Assembly: GCA_001661245.1 (NCBI GenBank)
Contig: KV454015.1
Span: 918,924 to 982,923, forward strand
DNA length: 64,000 nucleotides
Source of the DNA: Pachysolen tannophilus NRRL Y-2460
Lineage: Eukaryota
Reading direction: 5' to 3'
Part shown: positions 3,419-28,459 of the stretch, piece by piece
How the letters are laid out: each line of letters starts with the position of its first letter
Numbering within the stretch: position 1 is the first letter of the stretch
Program-made: the position numbers and the translations under genes
Notes under the pieces: model-generated
What the model was told of the DNA's origin: nothing
What the model saw: only the letters and a program-made list of their open reading frames with translations
Database searches by the model: none

Positions 3419-6400
3419 TTATTTATTGTCGTTTTTCTTATTCTTTTCCTCTTCAATTTTATCAAATTCTGCTTTCCAAACGTTGTTGGCATCTTCTTTT
3501 GAAAGATCAGGGAATAAAACATTGAAAACATCACTATACCAATCAGCTGCAACAGGAGTCAATCCTTCCTTAACGTTATCCGGTAATTCTTTCCAATCTG
3601 CCAAATTGTCCTTAGGGAATATGATAGTTTTAACACCAGATCTCTTTGCTGCAATAGTCTTCTCCTTTAATCCTCCAATTCTTAAAACTTTTCCTGTCAA
3701 AGTTAATTCACCAGTCATGGCAACGGTTGGATCTAAAGACTTGTTCAAAGCCAATGATAAGAATGAAGATGTCATTGTAACACCAGCAGATGGACCATCT
3801 TTTGGAGTAGCACCTTCTGGACAATGTAAATGAATCTTAGCTTTTTCAAAGAATCTGTTTCCCGGGTAGTTCTTAGCTAAAAACATTTCAGCAAATGAAT
3901 AAGCAATTCTTGAAGATTCCTTCATAACATCACCCAACTGACCTGTAATTTCAACTCTTGGGACAGAATCAATAGTGATAGCCTGTTCCAAAACTGATTC
4001 TATATACAATGCAGAACCACCCATTGAAGTCCAAGCAAGACCCATAACGACACCAGGAGGTGTGGTTTCATAAAGACGATCAGCAGTGTATATTTGTGGA
4101 CCCACGTAATCTTTCAAGTTTTTTTCATCAACTTCGACTTTATAGGATTCTGGAACATTTATTTGTGGGATTTCTGCCTCAACTTCATCTTCAGGTTTTG
4201 GAGTTGTATCTAAATTTCTCAGTTGCTTCTCATCATGAGTCTCCTCAGAATTTTTCGAAGCGGTTTTAGTTTTGGTGGTGTCCTTAGGTTCTGTTTCTGA
4301 AGTAGAGATTTCATTATTGTCTTTTTTATGCTCCTCATCAGATTTTTCTAATAATTCTTCATCTTTAACGACATCTACTTCTTCATCACCTAACTCTTTA
4401 ACAACATTTAATGCGGCTTTTCTATAAATTTTCTCGATTTGTTTTTTCAAATTTCTTACACCACTTTCTCTGCAGTAATTCTTAATTAATGCCTTAATGG
4501 CCTCTTCAGTTAAATTAACATTAACCTTGTCCAATCCTGATGATTTTTTAGCATCTGGTGCCAAATATTTCTCAGCAATCTTAATTTTTTCTTCGGCAAT
4601 GTAACCAGAAATCTCAATGACTTCCATTCTATCTAATAAAGGACCAGGAATTGTACTCAAAGTATTTGCAGTGCAAACAAATAATACTTTAGATAAATCA
4701 ATTGGAACATCCATATAATTATCCAAAAAGGAATTATTTTGTTCTGGATCCAATAATTCTAACAAAGCTGCTGCAGGATCACCACCGTTAACACTATGGG
4801 TATGAGAAACCTTATCAATTTCATCTATTAAAATCAACGGATTCTCAGTTTGCGTCTTCTTCAAAGCTTGAACAACTCTACCAGGGATGGCACCAACATA
4901 CGTTCTTCTATGACCCTTGATTTCAGAAACATCGCTTAAACCACCAACAGAAAATCTATAAAACTTTCTATTCAAAGCTTCGGCAATAGACTTACCAATA
5001 GATGTTTTACCAACACCTGGAGGACCAACAAAACAGATGATCTTACCATTAATTTTATTTAATAATTTACCAACCGCAATGAATTCTAAGATACGCTCTT
5101 TTACATCTTTCAAACCGTAATGGTCCTCATTCAAAATACGAACGGCTCTTCTAATGCTGTATTCATCTTTTGAAGCTTTACCCCACGGTATTTGGGTTAA
5201 CCAATCAAGATAGTTTCTTGTAACTGTGAATTCTGACATTAATGGTTCCAAGGAACTTAACTTATTAATTTCGTCATCATAAACTTTTTTCACATCTTCA
5301 GGCATCTTGAGATCCTTTACCCTTTCGTTATATTTCGCAATCAATTTATCTCTACCATCATCAATACCTAATTCCTTCTTGATAGATTTCAACTGTTCAT
5401 TCAAATGATATTCTCTATGTCTCTTGGTCATTCTTTCTTCCAAATCTTTTTCGATGTCTTTCTGTAATTTCTTGTTCATTAACTCTTTATTTAAGACAAC
5501 TAAAGCCAATTCCAATCTTTTCTCGACATCCACACATTCCAAAATTTCTTGTAAATCTTTTTCTTCTGCAGCTGATAATGAAGCAGCGAAATCAGCTAAT
5601 TTTTCTGGAGATTGGAAAACATCTTTTTGCAAGGAAGAACTGAATGTTGCCATTTGATCGCTAAATACTTTATTCATAGATGAAATATCTTTAAAAACTT
5701 GTAAAATTTCAGCTGTTAAAGCATTGATCATTGGTGATTTTTTATCGTAAGGTAAATCTTCAACGTTAGATACATTAACTAAAGTGATCGGATATTTTTT
5801 CAAATATGCTGTCGGATTTTCTTGTTCGTCTTCAATTGCAGCATCCACATCTTGTTTAGTGATCATTGGTTTAGTCTGAGGCGAGATTTGTTTTTCCTCA
5901 TCCAGATCAACTATTCTATTTCTCTCGGTAGAAGAAGGAGTATCTCCTTCTTTTTCACCTGTGATACCATCAATGATTTCTTTCTTTTCCTTTTGAGAGC
6001 GAACTACAATCTCCTCTGGTTGATCATGCAGCAGTGAAGTATCTTGTTCATAATCTTTTACTTCCTTTGGCGCAAAAAGTTCATCTATCTTGATCCTTTT
6101 ATGAACATAAAATACAGTCGTTAAAATTTCATTACCCGTTTCGACATCTCTGGAAAAAACTGTGGAAGTAACTTGAGCCAACACACCAGTTTCATAAACC
6201 TCATCTTTAGATTTAATTGTATCACCTTCTGCATTTTCATTCTTAAATAAGAAACAACCAATGTATGGTTGATTTTTATTCATCATTTCTTTAATTGCTT
6301 TCATAACATTGACATCAGTTATAACAACACATTTGTAAAAACCAGGAAATAAAGGTCTCCCAGAAATTGGCAATGCTAAAATCTGCGGATATACTTCTGG

Positions 6401-7045
6401 CAAATCTGTTGAGATATCTTGTTTAGCTGACTTGGAAGATGATTTCAGAGAAAATGATGGTGCAGATGAGTTTCCATCCCCACCATCGTTATTACCTGGA
6501 GGAGCAGCTCCACCTGCTGCAGCTGCAGCTGCCCCTGAACCTGGTGGTTTAGAAGATTTAAAAGAACCCCTTACAGATGATTTTGGAGTATCTTTACTTG
6601 GTGCTGGCGGTTGCTTATCTGTTTCATCTTCTTTGTCGTTATTTCGCTGATCATCATCATTTGTCTTTTCATCTTTACCATTATTATCATTTTTATTATT
6701 CTCCTTGTCTGAAGAATCAATCTTAACTTCGTTATTGCCATTGTTATTCTTTGATTTCAACTTCAAAGCTTTCATTAAAGAATTTTGTTGAGAAAAAGAT
6801 GGATTGAAAAAATCAGTTGTCAGTTGCGGATGCTGAATCTGTCCTGGATTCCTTAAACTAACATATTCAAAAGATTTACCGCCGTTTAATTGATTCAACA
6901 ATTTTGTAGTATCATCATATACCGTCTTCCTCAATATCGCCTCTGTCTGAAAATTAGATAATGATGATGCAAACTTTTTCTTATTTATATTAAATGATCT
7001 GATTATTAAACTTGAGGTGCTCACTGAACCTCTTTTGGAAAGCAT
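3419..7045 (-). CDS. PIM1: Mitochondrial Lon protease
   Basis: Walker A GPPGVGKTS, IKGHRRTYVGA, LIDEIDK, catalytic PKDGPSAG and GGLKEK; basic N-terminal presequence. Confidence 0.97.
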   Translation of the reverse strand: MLSKRGSVSTSSLIIRSFNINKKKFASSLSNFQTEAILRKTVYDDTTKLLNQLNGGKSFEYVSLRNPGQIQHPQLTTDFFNPSFSQQNSLMKALKLKSKNNNGNNEVKIDSSDKENNKNDNNGKDEKTNDDDQRNNDKEDETDKQPPAPSKDTPKSSVRGSFKSSKPPGSGAAAAAAGGAAPPGNNDGGDGNSSAPSFSLKSSSKSAKQDISTDLPEVYPQILALPISGRPLFPGFYKCVVITDVNVMKAIKEMMNKNQPYIGCFLFKNENAEGDTIKSKDEVYETGVLAQVTSTVFSRDVETGNEILTTVFYVHKRIKIDELFAPKEVKDYEQDTSLLHDQPEEIVVRSQKEKKEIIDGITGEKEGDTPSSTERNRIVDLDEEKQISPQTKPMITKQDVDAAIEDEQENPTAYLKKYPITLVNVSNVEDLPYDKKSPMINALTAEILQVFKDISSMNKVFSDQMATFSSSLQKDVFQSPEKLADFAASLSAAEEKDLQEILECVDVEKRLELALVVLNKELMNKKLQKDIEKDLEERMTKRHREYHLNEQLKSIKKELGIDDGRDKLIAKYNERVKDLKMPEDVKKVYDDEINKLSSLEPLMSEFTVTRNYLDWLTQIPWGKASKDEYSIRRAVRILNEDHYGLKDVKERILEFIAVGKLLNKINGKIICFVGPPGVGKTSIGKSIAEALNRKFYRFSVGGLSDVSEIKGHRRTYVGAIPGRVVQALKKTQTENPLILIDEIDKVSHTHSVNGGDPAAALLELLDPEQNNSFLDNYMDVPIDLSKVLFVCTANTLSTIPGPLLDRMEVIEISGYIAEEKIKIAEKYLAPDAKKSSGLDKVNVNLTEEAIKALIKNYCRESGVRNLKKQIEKIYRKAALNVVKELGDEEVDVVKDEELLEKSDEEHKKDNNEISTSETEPKDTTKTKTASKNSEETHDEKQLRNLDTTPKPEDEVEAEIPQINVPESYKVEVDEKNLKDYVGPQIYTADRLYETTPPGVVMGLAWTSMGGSALYIESVLEQAITIDSVPRVEITGQLGDVMKESSRIAYSFAEMFLAKNYPGNRFFEKAKIHLHCPEGATPKDGPSAGVTMTSSFLSLALNKSLDPTVAMTGELTLTGKVLRIGGLKEKTIAAKRSGVKTIIFPKDNLADWKELPDNVKEGLTPVAADWYSDVFNVLFPDLSKEDANNVWKAEFDKIEEEKNKKNDNK

Positions 7046-7221
7046 TATTAATGATTTGTTACAACTAACCTTTTTTTTATATATAAAAAAATAACTTTCC
7101 TTACTCTTCTCTTTTTCTATTTCTTATTTTTTTTTTTTTTTTNNNNNNNNNNNNNNNNNNNNNNNNNNNNNNNNNNNNNNNNNNNNNNNNNNNNNNNNNN
7201 NNNNNNNNNNNNNNNNNNNNN

Positions 7222-7950
7222 GTTTAGCTGACTTGAAAGAATGATTTCAGAGAAAAATGATGGTGCAGATGAGTTTCCATCCCCACCATCGTTATTACCT
7301 GGAGGAGCAGCTCCACCTGCTGCAGCTGCAGCTGCCCCTGAACCTGGTGGTTTAGAAGATTTAAAAGAACCCCTTACAGATGATTTTGGAGTATCTTTAC
7401 TTGGTGCTGGCGGTTGCTTATCTGTTTCATCTTCTTTGTCGTTATTTCGCTGATCATCATCATTTGTCTTTTCATCTTTACCATTATTATCATTTTTATT
7501 ATTCTCCTTGTCTGAAGAATCAATCTTAACTTCGTTATTGCCATTGTTATTCTTTGATTTCAACTTCAAAGCTTTCATTAAAGAATTTTGTTGAGAAAAA
7601 GATGGATTGAAAAAATCAGTTGTCAGTTGCGGATGCTGAATCTGTCCTGGATTCCTTAAACTAACATATTCAAAAGATTTACCGCCGTTTAATTGATTCA
7701 ACAATTTTGTAGTATCATCATATACCGTCTTCCTCAATATCGCCTCTGTCTGAAAATTAGATAATGATGATGCAAACTTTTTCTTATTTATATTAAATGA
7801 TCTGATTATTAAACTTGAGGTGCTCACTGAACCTCTTTTGGAAAGCATTATTAATGATTTGTTACAACTAACCTTTTTTTTTATATATAAAAAAAATAAC
7901 TTTCCTTACTCTTCTCTTTTTCTATTTCTTATTTTTTTTTTTTTTTTTTT
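7222..7950. repeat. Near-identical second copy of 6421-7142 (PIM1 5' end and leader) across an N gap; probable unmerged contig overlap
   Basis: Matches 6421-7142 except for homopolymer lengths near contig ends; the copies are separated by N 7143-7221. Confidence 0.9.
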
Positions 7951-21948: not shown

Positions 21949-22200
21949 ACTTATTTTTTAAATCTTTTCTCTTTTTCTTTTTCTTTTTTTTCTTTTTCGG
22001 AGGTTATCTTTCCCCGTCATTGAATAATAACGTACAATGTATTTAATACTAATAACCCTAAAAAAAAGAAGGTGATTATTTTTTTATTTCTTTTAGCATT
22101 TTTATGCATGCTGCATATAAAAGCCGATGAGATGCCCACTTACTTTGTATCAATAAAGAGGTCCAGTTCATCTTTATATTTATTTATTGCTGGCAATAAT

Positions 22201-23025
22201 ATGTTTTCATCGAGGAATATGGTTAAAGGAGATAAGTTGGTTGGGATCTTGCAGAGGTTGGTAGATGAAGTGCAAGATAAGCATTATGATTCAACAACTG
22301 ATTTTATCAATCAGATTAATAGATCTTATTATAACAGTTTATTGAAAAATTTTTCTAAAAATTATGAATTGAATTTATTGGATATTTTAAATAATAACAT
22401 TCTAGCTTCTGAAAAAAGACAAAATCGTAAATTGGCAACTGTGGTTCAATTTATTGATAGTGAAGATTTAATTTTCCAATTTTACTTGAGTTTGTTGTTG
22501 ATAAATGAAATCTTGACCAAGATTGATTCTAATAAGGATTTATACTGGTTAAATGATTTTAAATATTATATATTATTGGATAAAGAACACGATCCGAGAA
22601 TAGTGTCTTTGTTGAAAAAGCTAATTGATCTGTCCATGCTTTCTTATAATTTGGAAATACGTCTTTCACCAAAAGATTTAAATTATTTTGTTGAAGATGG
22701 TGAAGATAGCATTGATCTTCTTCTTTTATTGCACAAAGATCAATTTAAGAACTTGAGCGTTTTACAAGAAGTAGAATCATTATGTTTAATACATCTGAAT
22801 GGCAGTTTTATTATTTCAAATATTTTCGAGTATAAGAATGGTTTGGAAGAATATGTTGACGCGGCTCCTTTTGAAAAAAACTACTACTATAACGTTGGTA
22901 GGTGGAATTTTATATATGAGAATAAGCTTATTAAAGTTGATAAAAAAGATTTGAAAATTGAAAAATTGAAATATTTCATACCCGACTATATTGAATTTAC
23001 AAGATGTGTTGAATATCTTAGTTAG
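22201..23025 (+). CDS. Divergent catechol O-methyltransferase-like protein, SAM motif degenerate
   Basis: C-terminal half (SIDLLLLLH...ESLCLI...GRWNFIYENK...PDYIEFTRCV) resembles fungal COMT C-termini; no ELG-x-x-G motif I; start uncertain. Confidence 0.55.
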   Translation: MFSSRNMVKGDKLVGILQRLVDEVQDKHYDSTTDFINQINRSYYNSLLKNFSKNYELNLLDILNNNILASEKRQNRKLATVVQFIDSEDLIFQFYLSLLLINEILTKIDSNKDLYWLNDFKYYILLDKEHDPRIVSLLKKLIDLSMLSYNLEIRLSPKDLNYFVEDGEDSIDLLLLLHKDQFKNLSVLQEVESLCLIHLNGSFIISNIFEYKNGLEEYVDAAPFEKNYYYNVGRWNFIYENKLIKVDKKDLKIEKLKYFIPDYIEFTRCVEYLS

Positions 23026-23342
23026 AGTTATTCTAATTAACTATTTATCATGGTGTGCATATATACTTTCTGAAGTTGTTAAGAATTTATTCTCTGGTCT
23101 CATTCATTAGTTTTACCTCTTCTATTATAGTATATTTTTAATGAAAAAATATTCTTGTTCCTGGATGCTCTTCTCATAAACTTACCTGTAATTTTTGCTC
23201 TAGAAATCTAGTAGATCCCTTTCATGCAAAGGAAACAAATTTTGGTATTCAATACAAAATTTCAGTTCTCATATGAGGTTACTAGAAATACATGAACATA
23301 CAATCAAAGAAATCTTTTTTTTATTGTTTTGTCTGCCCTATC

Positions 23343-23562
23343 CCTGGGTGACTCCCAGGTGTTTTGGGCTCATTGACTCATTGGCTCAGATATATGGCAC
23401 CCCACAGTTTTCAAAGATGCGCGAACACGAAAACACGAGCAAAAACATCTGCATAAACATGCGTCAACAAGTACAACTTTATAAAAAGAATGGAGCATCA
23501 CATTTACACTACACCATTTGGCGACAACGGCAAAATTTTCGCCAATCTTCTGCCTAATTTGG
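23343..23562. promoter_or_regulatory. Motif-rich promoter of the aspartyl protease
   Basis: Inverted repeat CCTGGG-TGACT-CCCAGG 23343-23359; TGACTCA 23374-23380; SCB CACGAAA 23426-23432; CArG/Mcm1 box CCTAATTTGG 23553-23562. Confidence 0.5.
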
Positions 23563-23843
23563 TGATAAGTAAAAAAGTATGGAAAAATCACAATGGAATA
23601 CACTTTGCAAGTATCTACGATTTCTGATTACAATAGAAGATCTCAAAGCAAAGATTGACATGGCACCAATGAACCCTTTTGTTCTTAATGTTTTTCTTTT
23701 CAATTTTTGAAGATTATTCAATTCTTGAAGAAGAGCTATAAAATATATAAATGGATCTAAGAATAACCGCAAAAATGACTTGTTGTAGGAACACTTTAAT
23801 CGTTTTGATCAAGAGAAGAGAAAATAATTGAAATTATCGTCAA

Positions 23844-25193
23844 ATGAAGCTGTCTTTTTGGATTCTTTCCTTACTAATATGTTTAAGTTTTGCTTTTTCA
23901 CTGTCTTTAAATAAATTGGACACTGAGGATGGAGTCGTTGCTTTCAGTTTCCATGTCCATAGAGGAAACACTCTTGAAGATGCTACCAGGTATAACCGGC
24001 CTTATTTGTCAAAGAGGTCGAATGAAGATGGAACCTTATCCTCAACTATTTTAAACGAACAAAGTTTTTATTTGGCAAATATTTCAGTTGGATCATCACA
24101 ACAACAAATCGGTGTACTTCTTGACACTGGTTCTGCTGACATGTGGCTCATGAGTCAAAGTAATCCATATTGTGATTCAACTGTTGACTGCAACAAATAT
24201 GGAACTTTCAACGAGAGCAATTCTACTACTTTTGAATCAAATAATACAGACTTCTCCATCGGTTATGTTGATCACAGATTTGCTACTGGGGAATGGGGCC
24301 ATGATGATATAACCATTAATGGGGTCACGGTTAATCAACAGTCGTTTGCTGTTGCCAATAAATCAAATTCCTCGATTAGTGTTTTGGGTATCGGATTTGC
24401 TGGCCTAGAAAGTACCAATGATCCAACTAATGGATATACATACGCAAATTTACCAATTAAAATGGTTGAACAAGGAATTATAAAAAAAAGCGTATATTCC
24501 TTGTACTTGAACAGCTCACAAGTGAGTACTGGGAATATTTTGTTTGGTGGTGTGGATCACGAAAAGTACACTGGTTCTTTACAAACAGTTGAAATTGTTA
24601 ACACTGATTCGGATTCTAGTAAACCTATTACAGTCGCTGTAACGTTATCGTCCATTTCTGTAGGCTCAAATGTCGTCACTTCACAGACCTCAGCTGCATT
24701 ATTAGATTCTGGTACAACTGCAATTTATGCTCCCTCTCTGGTATTTACTGCTTTAGGTGAACTGTTGGGTGCTTCTTATTCTTCCCTGCTCGGTGCTTAT
24801 ACATTCAACTGCATCGATGAAAGTAACGATACTCTGGTCACTTTTGATTTTACTGGAGCACAAATTAATGTAACTCTATATGAATTGCAAATAGATGTAT
24901 CGGAACTTTCCTCTTCTGTTTCTGATGCAAATGGTAGCTGTGCAATCTCGATATTCAAATCAAGTGATTCGAGTTATATTTTAGGAGATGTATTTTTAAC
25001 TTCTGCCTATGTTGTGTATGATTTAGAGAATTATCAAGTTTCACTTGCGCAATCAAATCAGAATTCTACAGAAACAAATATTGAAGTTATTCAATCCACT
25101 GTCCCCTCTGCTTCAACAGCTAAATACTATAGTAGTACTTGGTCAGGCTCTTCATCTTCTTCATCTTCTTCATCTTCAGCATCCACCTCTTAA
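23844..25193 (+). CDS. Secreted aspartyl protease (yapsin/Bar1 family) with Ser-rich tail and no GPI signal before the stop
   Basis: Signal peptide, propeptide ending YLSKR (Kex2 site), catalytic LLDTGS and LLDSGTT, ILGDVFL, YVVYDL. Confidence 0.92.
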   Translation: MKLSFWILSLLICLSFAFSLSLNKLDTEDGVVAFSFHVHRGNTLEDATRYNRPYLSKRSNEDGTLSSTILNEQSFYLANISVGSSQQQIGVLLDTGSADMWLMSQSNPYCDSTVDCNKYGTFNESNSTTFESNNTDFSIGYVDHRFATGEWGHDDITINGVTVNQQSFAVANKSNSSISVLGIGFAGLESTNDPTNGYTYANLPIKMVEQGIIKKSVYSLYLNSSQVSTGNILFGGVDHEKYTGSLQTVEIVNTDSDSSKPITVAVTLSSISVGSNVVTSQTSAALLDSGTTAIYAPSLVFTALGELLGASYSSLLGAYTFNCIDESNDTLVTFDFTGAQINVTLYELQIDVSELSSSVSDANGSCAISIFKSSDSSYILGDVFLTSAYVVYDLENYQVSLAQSNQNSTETNIEVIQSTVPSASTAKYYSSTWSGSSSSSSSSSSASTS

Positions 25194-25645
25194 AAGCTAT
25201 TAGTTCAAGTCATAATAGTAATTATTTTAACTATATAAAAGTATTTAGAAAAAATATAAAAAGAATTTTCAAAATTGGATTAACAAATTATAGGAACAAA
25301 CTCTAGATAATTGAGTTTGGACTAAAAATTAAAAAAGTTGCAGTGAAAACAGCATGCATTTGAAAACCTCTCACTCTGCGGCTCATTTTTTTCAACAGGT
25401 TTAAAAACTTTCACTTGTAAATATAAACTTAAACATGTACATCTTGTGGATCATCTTTATGTCGGCAGCAGCAACATTTGAAAGCGTTCTTTGTATTAGC
25501 TGATCAAACTACAACTTATCGAAGAATTCTAAAAATGGATTTATTATAAAGAAATAAAAAATGATTCTAATTAGAAAGAGATGAAAGAAAGAAATCATGA
25601 AAAAAAATATGGATAGTTTTCTTGATAAGGAATTTGATTCAGAAA

Positions 25646-26812
25646 TTAAAGCAGATTAAGCAATATAGGAAACAACCATAAGAACATTGAAATTTTAATC
25701 TTTTGATTTCCGACTCCTTGCGAAATTACGGAAAAGGGTGACGTGGAAGTCGTATTAATGAACATGCTGCTTACTTGGACCAGTGTACTCGAAGCAGCTG
25801 CGCTTGGCGAAGTGACCTGATTAGACTCTCCAGAAGTAGCTAAAAAGATTGCTTTCGAGCTTACTGATGAAGCTGTTAAAGGACAGAAAGTAGTATAAGA
25901 AGTTGAATATCCACTTATGGTAGTATAAACTATGATGGTTGTCCAGCTAGTTTGTTCTGAGCTTGAACTATTTTCTGAAGAAGGAGTCACAACAGAAATT
26001 GAATTGGTCGAAGAAGTTGATGAAATAGAACCACCCCAAATACTGAGAGTAGAGCATCCTGTGTACAAAGAGGACGTAGTTTTTGAGAAACTACTTAGTG
26101 CACTCGTGATGCTCAAAGATGATGTTAATGAAGGAACGACGGAAGTTGAGTAAACAGTTAGCGACTGAGTTGCGGAAGACATAGTAGGATAGTAGCTTGA
26201 ACTGATTGAACTTGAAGATGAAGATGATGGAGTTTGACTATTGATAGTGACTGTGGAGCTAGCTAAAGATGATAATGAGGGAGTGAAAGCTATAGAAGAA
26301 CTTGCGGCTAAAAGCGTAGAAGAAAGAGTAGAAGTAAAACCTAATGTACTTGAACTGCTCATTTCTTCTATCGATGATGATTCCAGATTTGTTGAACTGA
26401 GAACTGTACTTGAGCAAGGTGTGGTTGAAGTTGTAGATGTGAATGCAGAGCTAACGGAACTAGGAGACACTGTAGAAGAAGAAGGTGTTTGAATAATGGA
26501 AACAACATAAGTGCTGACACTTGTAGCAGTAGAAATAATACTTGAAATGGTAGACGAGCAACTACTGAAAGTTGAGCATTGAATACAAGTTGTTTCGGTT
26601 GTTACCAAATTTTCTGAAACAATGGTACTGACACTTGTAACTGTTGATGTTCCTGTTGAAATGAATGAAGAAACACTTGAAGCCGTCACGCATTCTTGAC
26701 AAGTTGTAATCTCATTTGACCTTTTGAGTAAAGCTGGAATCACAAAACCATTGACTGTGTATAGTAAAATTGGAATAATTAGCGAAAGATTGAATACTGT
26801 CAATGGCAACAT
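25646..26812 (-). CDS. Ser/Thr-rich GPI-anchored cell-wall adhesin (Aga1/Fig2-like)
   Basis: ATG 26812 (MLPLTVFNL signal peptide), LLKR site, two CxxC motifs, long Ser/Thr stalk, YTTFCPL motif, GPI-type C-terminus SQGVGNQKIKISMFLWLFPILL. Confidence 0.8.
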   Translation of the reverse strand: MLPLTVFNLSLIIPILLYTVNGFVIPALLKRSNEITTCQECVTASSVSSFISTGTSTVTSVSTIVSENLVTTETTCIQCSTFSSCSSTISSIISTATSVSTYVVSIIQTPSSSTVSPSSVSSAFTSTTSTTPCSSTVLSSTNLESSSIEEMSSSSTLGFTSTLSSTLLAASSSIAFTPSLSSLASSTVTINSQTPSSSSSSSISSSYYPTMSSATQSLTVYSTSVVPSLTSSLSITSALSSFSKTTSSLYTGCSTLSIWGGSISSTSSTNSISVVTPSSENSSSSEQTSWTTIIVYTTISGYSTSYTTFCPLTASSVSSKAIFLATSGESNQVTSPSAAASSTLVQVSSMFINTTSTSPFSVISQGVGNQKIKISMFLWLFPILLNLL

Positions 26813-27244
26813 TGTTGAAAAAAATGTACTTAGTTGGCCTGAGAAAACATAGAGAAAACCATTTTGAATTCGAAGTCTTATATCTATATATATATATATA
26901 GATATATTCAAACTTATTGTTTTAAGCTAATGCTTCCCCTTCAACAATAAACTAAACTCAGAATTTTTTGTTTTTCGTTTTTTTTTTTTAATCATCATTT
27001 GTTTATTCAATTTCTTTAAGTAAGAACAGATCTAGAGGGTTTAAAACACTAAACCTATATTTGTTCTTCTATTTGTTTGAAATCAATATATTATAACTGA
27101 ACAGGTGAAAACAATTTCCTTTTTAGTCCAAGACAATAAGCGAAAAGAGAAAACCTCTCGAAATGCGGCTTACACACTTGATTTATCACATTTTTAAAAT
27201 ACTTCAAATATAAGAACATTCAAAATCCATTAAAAGGCTAGTTA

Positions 27245-27251
27245 TGTTTCA
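27245..27251 (-). promoter_or_regulatory. Pheromone response element (Ste12 consensus TGAAACA) in the divergent adhesin promoter
   Basis: TGTTTCA on + strand; CArG-like one-mismatch sites nearby at about 27291-27305, 27310-27322 and 27371-27387. Confidence 0.4.
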
Positions 27252-27530
27252 GAACCTAATTGTCAAGACCGTATTCAAATTTTGAAAGGACTCAATTTGG
27301 GAAAATATAGCAATTTTGGAAACAAATTAGTTGATAAGTAAAAATAAGTTAGCTCAAATTAATTAAAAAATACCCATTTTGAGAAAATTTTCATGGAAAA
27401 TCAACTTGATTTGTTTAAAGATGAATTTAATACTTTTCATAAACTATAAATAAGAATTGTATGCCATATCATTTCAAAAAAAAAAAAAAAAAGGCCTGCC
27501 TATAGAAATCTCATCAAAATTCGTTTACCG

Positions 27531-28004
27531 ATGACAGTGAACTTTTCACTATTTTTAACAGCTTTCATGGCTTTCGCTTCAATTGGTAAGTTTTAAAATT
27601 TATACTTCAATAGAAAACAACGATATTAATAAAGCCACCTTTTTTGTCATCTTAAAGTTAATTGTGATGCCAGCACTCAATATATAACTTATACTACGTT
27701 AGAGACATATGAGACAACGTTATTTTCAACTTTTACTACTGTCAGCTGTCCTCCTATAACGTCCACTTCAACTTCAGGAGAAACAGAAGTCATTATTATC
27801 AACACTTGCGCCCCTGACTATACTTCAACCTCAAGTAGCTCAACCCCAACTACGACAACTTCTTCTCCTTCTTCGTCTTCGTCGTCGTCGTCATCATCAT
27901 CATCATCATCATCGTCTTGCTTCACCGTTACTACAACAACCATTCCAACTACAGATGTTTCAACAGATATTGAACAATTAACAATTACTAGCTACGCAGA
28001 TTGA
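27531..28004 (+). CDS. Small secreted Ser/Thr/Cys-rich protein (133 aa), two exons 27531-27585 and 27658-28004; absent from ORF track
   Basis: ATG...ASI-G|GTAAGT, 72-nt intron ending TAAAG. Spliced product is MTVNFSLFLTAFMAFASIVNCDASTQYITYTTLET...VSCPP...NTCAP...poly-Ser-CFT...SYAD*. Exon 2 is a stop-free 115-codon frame with no ATG. Confidence 0.8.
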
Positions 28005-28459
28005 TTAATAGCTTCTTAATTTTGCTTTTAGAATATAGTTCCTGATTAGAGAAGCAATCACATCAATGAAGTAATTGAATCCCAATGAGAATATAATGCA
28101 AGTTTATCGACAAAACCCTAATCTTTTCTCTTTTATTTTTATCTTTATTTTTTTTTTTTCAACTTTTTTGCATTTAATATATACTAATACAATTATAACT
28201 TAAAGCTTAACCAGTAATAGGTACTCTTAGACCCAAACATTAGCTCCCTTTCACATTTCACTTTCATTTCAAACCAAACCAAACAGTTTTAATTGGTATT
28301 AAACATCATGTCAAATTGGTAGTGCGCATTTCTACAAATAAAATAAGAACTTAAAAGAAGTATTTGATTCATCGATTCTAACAATTTAAATATTATTATT
28401 AATTATTCAAAAATTATTTAGAGGCAAATTGATAATTCATTCGAAGCAGCAACAAGAAT

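What the first reader, a model, noticed from the sequence alone, without database searches (positions are those of the whole stretch)
23844..28004. Candidate clustered mating/adhesion module: Bar1-like protease, Aga1-like anchor and a hidden Aga2-like partner
Seen: three adjacent secretory-pathway genes among housekeeping genes. They are an unanchored aspartyl protease with a Ser tail, a GPI Ser/Thr protein with CxxC and YTTFCPL motifs, and a divergent small secreted Cys-containing protein with no anchor. The shared ~720-bp promoter has TGAAACA (27245-27251) and CArG-like sites, and the protease promoter has a perfect CArG box. Known: in S. cerevisiae, Aga1 (GPI, YTTWCPL motifs) holds the small secreted Aga2 by disulfides, Bar1 is an unanchored aspartyl protease, these genes are Ste12- and/or Mcm1-regulated, and they are unlinked. 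Inference: this may be a physically clustered pheromone-responsive agglutinin/barrier system.
Basis: partly seen in the sequence, partly recalled or inferred. Interest (0 to 1): 0.8.

Follow-up and report, generated by a model that had tools for sequence, protein, structure and literature searches.

The report
Mating-type-a yeast adhesin gene pair
Two head-to-head genes of a budding yeast, a cell-wall anchor and a small secreted protein, share the DNA switch that marks its mating-type-a genes and probably form its two-part sexual glue, while the protease next door looks like an unrelated bystander.

Summary
All three genes are real, but they probably do not form one three-part module. The host reads CUG as Ala. 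It matches a motif found de novo in the STE2, STE6-like, MFA and AXL1-like promoters, scores 20.5 bits, ranks 1 of 123 promoters and is the only site of 16 bits or more in 338.5 kb. This layout fits a Mata2-Mcm1 a-specific element, and one such site also sits in the head-to-head MFA promoter. The pair has a-agglutinin-like anatomy but no detectable homology to Aga1/Aga2 families or any other protein. The protease lacks the site (6.6 bits, median 7.7) and groups with GPI-tailed paralogues from this genome. Another protease, on C4, carries the site and is the better Bar1 candidate. There are no RNA data; expression, splicing and binding are inferred. My look-ups found no earlier scan note of this pair. 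Verdict: likely a-specific mating-adhesin pair; Bar1 cluster not supported.

The parts
23553..23562 (.). Perfect CArG box (possible Mcm1 site) in the protease promoter, without the a2-type half-site beside it
   Evidence: 10 of 123 background promoters have one
23844..25193 (+). Secreted yapsin-family aspartyl protease, 449 aa, with KR propeptide and no GPI tail; probably a bystander duplicate
25194..25238 (+). 14 hydrophobic codons in frame behind the protease stop; possible remnant of a GPI signal (unproven)
   Evidence: 5 of 149 genes reach this hydropathy, 2 of 149 with a 12-30 codon length; no DNA homology to paralogue tails seen
25646..26812 (-). GPI-type Ser/Thr cell-wall protein, 388 aa; Aga1-like anchor candidate
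   Evidence: Flocculin_t3 17.6 bits, under the cut-off of 21.9
25877..25897 (-). YTTFCPL (WCPL-type) motif, residues 306-312
26576..26701 (-). Two CX2C motifs (C38/C41, C76/C79) near the N-terminus; candidate disulfide docking sites
   Evidence: role inferred
27115..27139 (-). Composite Mata2-Mcm1-type (a-specific) site pointing at the GPI gene; 327 bp from its ATG, 392-416 bp from the small gene's ATG
27245..27251 (-). TGAAACA, Ste12 consensus; weak evidence alone
   Evidence: 35 of 123 background promoters
27445..27452 (+). TATAAATA, 86 bp upstream of the small gene's ATG
27531..27585 (+). Small gene exon 1 (signal peptide core)
27586..27657 (+). Inferred 72-nt intron (GTAAGT, TATTAAT, CTTAAAG)
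   Evidence: same atypical branch and acceptor as a 97-nt intron in the candidate MATa2 gene; no RNA
27658..28004 (+). Small gene exon 2: Ser/Thr-rich, Cys 21/49/69/106, free non-hydrophobic C-terminus; Aga2-like ligand candidate
   Evidence: 53 of 5000 composition-matched copies are stop-free; C at 59% of second codon positions

Best explanation
The GPI gene and the small gene form a head-to-head, mating-type-a-specific adhesin unit that works like a-agglutinin. In a cells Mata2 and Mcm1 bind the single site at 27115-27139 and switch on both genes, probably helped by Ste12 during mating (site shown; binding and expression inferred). The 388-aa protein is secreted, O-glycosylated and GPI-linked to the wall (anatomy shown; fate inferred). 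The 133-aa protein has a signal peptide and no anchor. It is held on the anchor's N-terminal CX2C cysteines by disulfides and presents its free C-terminus to a receptor on alpha cells (inferred by analogy). The protease is a yapsin duplicate specific to this lineage that lost its GPI tail and is not part of the unit. My odds step by step: GPI gene a-specific 0.8; small gene real and co-regulated 0.7; disulfide-linked to the anchor 0.5; protease a bystander 0.8.
For: De novo motif from 4 promoters, this locus left out: 20.5 bits, rank 1 of 123 promoters, the only site of 16 bits or more in 338,500 bases. With a first matrix, 0 of 300 shuffles reached the score. The MFA pair, found by a CAAX coding pattern alone, has one 26.2-bit site between its two genes; the other 19 of 21 CAAX hits scored 17.1 at most. 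The genes carrying the site (STE2, STE6-like, AXL1-like, ASG7-like, one protease) match the a-specific set reported for W. anomalus (10.1101/565234). 0 of 5 other flocculin-repeat genes examined exceed 12 bits. Exon 2 looks coding and contains no Met, so it needs the splice. S. cerevisiae Aga1 binds Aga2 through its N-terminal 149 residues (PMC6081942), and Aga2 binds Sag1 by its C-terminus (PMC10144551). Protease.
Against: No detectable homology: 0 of 100 candidates for exon 2, 0 hits for GPI residues 1-135 in 1.84 billion representatives, and no Pfam family for exon 2 at E up to 1 or for its first 57 residues at E up to 5. The GPI protein has no CX4C, and its single CPL motif is C-terminal, unlike the Aga1 repeats described in PMC6023273. 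The site points at the GPI gene and the small gene lies behind it; all 5 single-gene sites point toward their gene, so only the MFA pair supports two-way use. The loose patterns are barely enriched genome-wide (13 vs 12 control; 22 vs 14). 2 of the 4 non-training sites at 22.6 bits or more lie at genes with no mating role known to me (SOG2-like, HAP5-like). The STE6-like and AXL1-like promoters were first met through a pattern built partly on this locus. No Sag1/Als N-terminal domain was found in the genome (the tool warns this does not show absence). In O. polymorpha no gene other than the MAT genes is constitutively a-specific (PMC5720833), so cell-type specificity may appear only under mating conditions.
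Confidence: 0.5

Rival explanations
1. Only the GPI gene is the a-specific target, acting as a one-chain mating adhesin of the Fig2/Hwp1 type. The small protein is secreted independently, for example into the wall matrix, and is not linked to it.
For: The site points at the GPI gene at the usual distance (327 bp; others 186-487). WCPL-type motifs mediate Aga1-Fig2 and Fig2-Fig2 adhesion without Aga2 (PMC10144551). No Sag1-like receptor was found.
Against: An anchorless Cys-bearing Ser/Thr protein directly opposite an a-specific CX2C anchor is the a-agglutinin anatomy. The MFA pair has the same one-site, two-gene layout.
Confidence: 0.25
2. One reading: a three-gene mating cluster in which the unanchored protease is the Bar1-type barrier enzyme, possibly recruited recently from a yapsin by loss of its GPI tail.
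For: It is adjacent, secreted, catalytically intact and has a perfect CArG box. In K. phaffii a yapsin-named protease, Yps1-5, is a-type specific (PMC5993090), so yapsin ancestry alone does not exclude the role. None of the three genes lies upstream of YTH1 in 8 other yeast loci, so they may have arrived together.
Against: Best motif score 6.6, below the median of 7.7; 216 of 300 shuffles match its score. No TGAAAC in 818 bp. Tail-to-tail with the GPI gene, so no shared promoter. Sister to a GPI-tailed paralogue, on an ordinary branch length (0.45 vs 0.53). Another protease carries the site (18.2 bits) plus TGAAACA.
Confidence: 0.1
3. The site is a chance or non-mating Mcm1 element. The GPI protein is an ordinary vegetative wall protein, and the small frame is a minor secreted gene or a relic.
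For: Strong sites also occur at SOG2-like and HAP5-like genes. Flocculin-type repeats are common in this genome. The small gene has an atypical branch point.
Against: The site is the only one of 16 bits or more in 338.5 kb. Exon 2 has coding-type composition. The same atypical intron signals occur in the candidate MATa2 gene.
Confidence: 0.15

Closest known systems
S. cerevisiae a-agglutinin (Aga1 anchor + Aga2 ligand)
   Same: A GPI Ser/Thr anchor with N-terminal cysteines and a WCPL-type motif; a small secreted Cys-bearing partner with a free C-terminus; mating-type-a control of the unit (inferred here).
   Different: No detectable sequence homology. The anchor is 388 aa vs 725, with two CX2C, no CX4C and one C-terminal FCPL. 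The partner is 133 aa vs 87 and has an intron. The genes are head-to-head under one Mata2-Mcm1-type site, whereas AGA1 and AGA2 are unlinked (recalled) and Aga1 is expressed in both mating types (PMC10144551).
Ancestral Mata2-Mcm1 a-specific regulon (C. albicans, W. anomalus: STE2, STE6, AXL1, ASG7, BAR1)
   Same: A composite site with an ATTGT-type half-site five bases from an Mcm1 box, found here at STE2, STE6-like, MFA, AXL1-like, ASG7-like and one protease.
   Different: The passages I saw list no a-agglutinin among W. anomalus a-specific genes (AGA1, AGA2 and 'agglutinin': 0 occurrences in the main text). This locus would add one. Calling the half-site the Mata2 site rests on recall; I did not see the published logos.
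Yapsins (Yps1/Mkc7/Yps3; K. phaffii Yps1 family)
   Same: The window protease has the signal, KR-ended propeptide and pepsin domain; its best named hits are yapsins and its sisters carry GPI-type tails.
   Different: It ends in a short Ser run without a GPI signal, so it should be released into the medium.
Bar1 barrier proteases (S. cerevisiae, C. albicans)
   Same: A secreted aspartyl protease with two Asp-Thr/Ser-Gly motifs (PMC4669382).
   Different: No a-specific site; recent yapsin duplicate; pheromone cleavage untested. The C4:731346 protease fits the regulation better, but it has a GPI-type tail and a DCG second motif.

Membership tests
a-agglutinin anchor (Aga1) | Signal peptide, Ser/Thr-rich body, C-terminal GPI signal | tested here: met
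   46% Ser+Thr; 11-residue hydropathy maxima 2.36 (N) and 2.24 (C); no dedicated predictor was run
a-agglutinin anchor (Aga1) | WCPL-type motif | tested here: met
   One YTTFCPL; 21.3 bits with an HMM of this genome's repeats; not diagnostic
a-agglutinin anchor (Aga1) | CX4C motif paired with WCPL in the N-terminal repeat (PMC6023273) | tested here: not met
   No CX4C; two CX2C instead
a-agglutinin anchor (Aga1) | Sequence homology to Aga1 | tested here: inconclusive
   0 hits for residues 1-135; only 135 of 388 residues were searched, the sequence is low-complexity, and no Aga1 sequence was at hand
a-agglutinin ligand (Aga2) | Small secreted Cys-bearing protein without an anchor | tested here: met
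   depends on an inferred intron
a-agglutinin ligand (Aga2) | Sequence homology to Aga2 | tested here: not met
   No Pfam match, 0 of 100 candidates, no usable Atlas hit; exon 2 only
a-agglutinin ligand (Aga2) | Disulfide linkage to the anchor; binding to an alpha-cell receptor | not testable with these tools
   needs DTT-release and agglutination assays
Mata2-Mcm1 a-specific regulon | Composite site shared with STE2, STE6, MFA, AXL1 (GPI/small promoter) | tested here: met
Mata2-Mcm1 a-specific regulon | A MATa2 HMG gene in the genome | tested here: inconclusive
   A two-exon candidate lies between alpha2-like and a1 genes but did not score against an HMM of 5 of this genome's HMG boxes; PMC6692504 reports MATa and MATalpha genes in P. 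tannophilus
Mata2-Mcm1 a-specific regulon | a-specific, Mata2-dependent expression | not testable with these tools
   needs RNA from mating-type-locked cells
Bar1 | Secreted aspartyl protease with two catalytic motifs | tested here: met
Bar1 | a-specific regulatory site | tested here: not met
   6.6 bits vs background median 7.7
Bar1 | Orthology with named Bar1 proteins | tested here: inconclusive
   No Bar1-named sequence among 111 rows, 114 rows or 10 clusters looked up; the tree shows a duplication within this genome
Bar1 | Cleaves alpha-factor | not testable with these tools
   biochemical assay; the alpha-factor gene was not found
Yapsin (Yps1/Mkc7 type) | KR-ended propeptide and grouping with GPI-tailed yapsin-like paralogues | tested here: met
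Yapsin (Yps1/Mkc7 type) | GPI anchor signal | tested here: not met
   C-terminal hydropathy -0.6 vs 3.0-3.2 in three paralogues

The most novel reading that the evidence does not exclude
This is an independently built a-agglutinin. A non-homologous anchor and ligand are kept head-to-head under one Mata2-Mcm1 switch, and they bind an alpha-cell receptor that is not of the Sag1/Als family, since none was detected in the genome. Two-subunit, disulfide-linked sexual adhesion would then have arisen twice in budding yeasts or been rebuilt beyond recognition, and the pair would be a second Aga1/Aga2-type display scaffold unrelated to the first.
Probability: 0.25. Interest if true: 0.72.

Novelty: new variant of a known kind. 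Interest (0 to 1): 0.5.

Why it matters
Sexual adhesins evolve too fast to be found by homology, and my paper searches turned up no a-agglutinin genes named outside Saccharomyces-type yeasts. Here a regulatory site shared with the pheromone, receptor and transporter genes picks out a concrete candidate pair in a CUG-Ala yeast, with a direct test (DTT release, deletion, site mutation). If it holds, it shows whether the two-subunit design is ancient or convergent, adds an adhesin to the ancestral a-specific regulon, and gives a general way to find such orphans. It also points to a different gene as the likely barrier protease of this yeast.

Tried and rejected
No RNA holder was listed; the four runs laid behave as DNA and show no splice joint, which says nothing on expression. 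Complex prediction of GPI residues 30-120 with small-protein residues 20-78, both without alignments, gave no verdict (score 0.00). The ESM Atlas gave no usable hit for exon 2; the GPI protein was not searched there. The idea that the small protein holds a degenerate flocculin repeat was rejected: score -6.4, 376 of 500 shuffles as high (one search gave no HMM output). A small-vs-GPI BLASTP gave best E 11. A possible paralogue at C2:454k is an antisense low-complexity frame. The alpha-specific motif could not be defined: PF05436 found nothing, the KR-EA-xA pattern gave 1 hit, on the antisense strand of an unrelated gene, one STE3-based pattern was mis-built and the corrected one gave 26 hits with no alpha-factor gene among them. 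So alpha-specific control of the protease is untested. The unanchored C4:799k protease as Bar1 was set aside: no site (6.6 bits), and its first catalytic motif reads DIG. The search for a named Bar1 reference failed. The HMM test of the candidate MATa2 was not significant. The ASG7-like gene has no Pfam confirmation; the name rests on a recalled Cys cluster plus membrane segment. A remnant GPI tail behind the protease stop is suggestive only. Background DNA was 338.5 kb of 12.6 Mb.
Full report
Host and code. The window is G000:C5:918924-982923 of a 12.6-Mb, 197-contig genome; the window is 30% G+C. CTG codons align with Ala in S. cerevisiae homologues at Rbg1 position 10 and Spt6 positions 515 and 873; the K. 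phaffii-type Spt6 chain has Gln and Ser at the latter two, and Rbg1 position 44 aligns with Thr. I therefore read the genome with table 26. The nearest named homologues of the protease are labelled Pachysolen tannophilus. That species inverts an 8-kb MAT region carrying both MATa and MATalpha genes (PMC6692504, passages). C4:227-236 kb holds alpha1 (Pfam), an a1-type homeodomain, an alpha2-like frame and a two-exon a2 candidate. The a2 candidate did not pass my HMM test.

The small gene needs a 72-nt intron. Unspliced it stops after 21 codons and exon 2 has no Met; 2 of 7 acceptors give a long frame, of 133 or 118 aa. Exon 2 looks coding: 53 of 5000 composition-matched copies are stop-free, and second positions are 59% C. 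The intron's atypical branch and acceptor recur in the 97-nt intron of the a2 candidate. Contigs of 2 of 4 DNA runs from one sample span 23300-28122, with no substitutions in any of the 4. Flocculin_t3 repeats occur 22 times in the genome, 21 of them in six other genes.

The STE2 promoter has CATTGT, five bases, then an Mcm1-type box; the shared promoter has the same layout at 27115-27139 on the minus strand. A pattern built from these two found 13 sites against 12 for the control, so it is not enriched by itself. One of the 13 lies 290 bp upstream of a full-length ABCB transporter (STE6-like). A tighter pattern with one mismatch gave 22 sites against 14. Seven lie inside frames. Of the 15 intergenic ones, six precede STE2, the STE6-like gene, an AXL1-like insulinase, an ASG7-like spliced gene (name recalled, no Pfam support), an aspartyl protease at C4:731346, and this locus; nine lie at other genes or at none I could name. 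STE2, AXL1, ASG7, BAR1 and STE6 are the a-specific genes listed for W. anomalus, where Mata2 activates them (10.1101/565234, passages).

Independent checks. A note from this scan mentioned a head-to-head a-factor pair. I located it with a CAAX coding pattern alone (21 hits). Its shared promoter holds one 26.2-bit site; the other 19 hits reached 17.1 at most. I then searched the STE2, STE6-like, MFA and AXL1-like promoters de novo, leaving this locus out, and the same motif came first. It scores the shared promoter 20.5 bits, rank 1 of 123 promoters, the only site of 16 bits or more in 338,500 bases (the window plus 28 fetched stretches). The ASG7-like promoter scores 16.9, the C4 protease 18.2, STE3 14.5, and the window protease 6.6 (median 7.7). 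Five other flocculin-repeat genes score 5.0-12.0; the sixth was not examined. Limits: two training promoters were first met through a pattern built partly on this locus; two strong sites lie at SOG2-like and HAP5-like genes; and the site points at the GPI gene, with the small gene behind it, as for one of the two MFA copies. Calling the half-site the Mata2 site is recalled from work on C. albicans and K. lactis; I did not see the logos.

The pair. S. cerevisiae Aga1 anchors the 69-residue Aga2 by two disulfides that DTT breaks (PMC7782832, passages). Its N-terminal 149 residues suffice (PMC6081942, passages). WCPL and CX4C motifs are the described Cys elements, and Aga2 binds Sag1 by its C-terminus (PMC10144551 and PMC6023273, passages). 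The window's anchor has two N-terminal CX2C, one C-terminal FCPL and no CX4C. The small protein has Cys at 21, 49, 69 and 106, no Lys or Arg, and a free C-terminus. Neither has a detectable relative: 0 of 100 candidates for exon 2, 0 hits for anchor residues 1-135, no real paralogue in the genome. The pair therefore works like a-agglutinin by anatomy and regulation, but I do not file it in the Aga1 or Aga2 families. No Sag1/Als domain was found in the genome (not proof of absence).

The protease. It has close paralogues in the genome: 59%, 58% and 50% identical, all three with GPI-type tails. In a 93-row FastTree (selected from the hits) and a 27-row IQ-TREE, it falls in a fully supported clade with two of them; IQ-TREE makes it sister to the copy 41 kb upstream (97/94), on an ordinary branch. 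It keeps a KR propeptide. Its promoter has a CArG box but no half-site and no TGAAAC. Fourteen hydrophobic codons follow its stop in frame (2 of 149 genes show the like), but I saw no DNA homology to the paralogues' tails. The C4:731346 protease has the site, a TGAAACA, no KR before its first catalytic motif and a long branch (best hits from other species 31-35% identical), which fits Bar1 better. Against it are a GPI-type tail and a DCG second motif, whereas C. albicans Bar1 has two Asp-Thr/Ser-Gly motifs (PMC4669382, passages). No named Bar1 was available, so orthology is open. Yapsin ancestry does not by itself exclude a barrier role, as K. phaffii Yps1-5 is a-type specific (PMC5993090, passages).

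Synteny. Eight YTH1 loci from other yeasts were fetched. Three show a COG4-like gene downstream, as here (judged by eye). None shows a protease or Ser/Thr-rich frame of 110 aa or more upstream, with 10 kb of flank in four loci and 0.3-3.4 kb in four. Shorter and spliced genes were not examined, and no CUG-Ala relative was available.

Literature. Ten searches were run. None of the listings or passages I saw describes these genes, a head-to-head a-agglutinin pair, or a-agglutinin genes in this clade. Besides the papers cited above I saw passages of PMC5748462, PMC5720833, PMC2253631 and PMC11392346 (not relevant); other papers were seen as listings only. No supplements were read, and the closed supplements of 10.1101/565234 may list further cell-type-specific genes. 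Most subscription papers are not in the library.

Verdict. A probable a-specific, a-agglutinin-like head-to-head pair (confidence 0.5 for the full mechanism, 0.8 for a-specific control of the anchor), beside a yapsin duplicate that is probably not Bar1. New variant of a known kind; interest 0.5.

Noticed in passing
L013:79-1728 (-) = G000:C4:729697-731346: Aspartyl protease with the a-specific-type site 328 bp upstream plus TGAAACA, no KR before the first catalytic motif, DCG second motif and a GPI-type tail; best Bar1 candidate in this genome.
   Followed up: partly
L156/L157 = G000:C3:1401298-1402763: Head-to-head a-factor pair sharing one 26.2-bit Mata2-Mcm1-type site and two Ste12-type sites; a flocculin-repeat GPI gene lies about 3 kb further on without the site.
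   Followed up: yes
L106:3621-4220 (+) = G000:C2:1071620-1072219: Intron-containing gene behind an a-specific-type site, with a Cys cluster and membrane segments that recall ASG7; no Pfam confirmation.
   Followed up: partly
L091 (G000:C1:2416753) and L097 (G000:C5:239426): Strong a-specific-type sites between an ammonium-permease-like gene and a SOG2-like LRR gene, and between a SNX3-like and a HAP5-like gene; either extra regulon members or false positives.
   Followed up: no
L077/L078 = G000:C4:227694-238508: MAT region with alpha1, alpha2-like, a two-exon a2 candidate, a1 and SLA2-like frames, beside a 4.4-kb N gap; the a2 candidate's intron has the same atypical signals as the small gene's.
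   Followed up: partly
window 25194-25238 (+): Fourteen hydrophobic codons in frame behind the protease stop, a possible GPI-signal remnant.
   Followed up: partly
window 22108-23025 (+): 305-aa frame upstream of the protease with no significant Pfam match.
   Followed up: no
L005:1027-2607 (+) = G000:C4:798826-800406: Second unanchored yapsin-like protein, with a His/Pro-rich insert and altered catalytic motifs (DIG, DSS); possibly inactive.
   Followed up: no
window 3419-7848 (-): Two adjacent frames (1208 aa and 243 aa) begin with the same 90 residues, suggesting a local duplication or an assembly repeat.
   Followed up: no
L027 = G000:C3:1663142-1666231 (-): Flocculin repeats at the end of a 6517-codon open frame: a very large adhesin-like gene.
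   Followed up: no
window 24012-24026 (+) and 26711-26725 (-): The protease and the GPI protein both have KRSNE at their putative Kex2 sites; probably chance.
   Followed up: no
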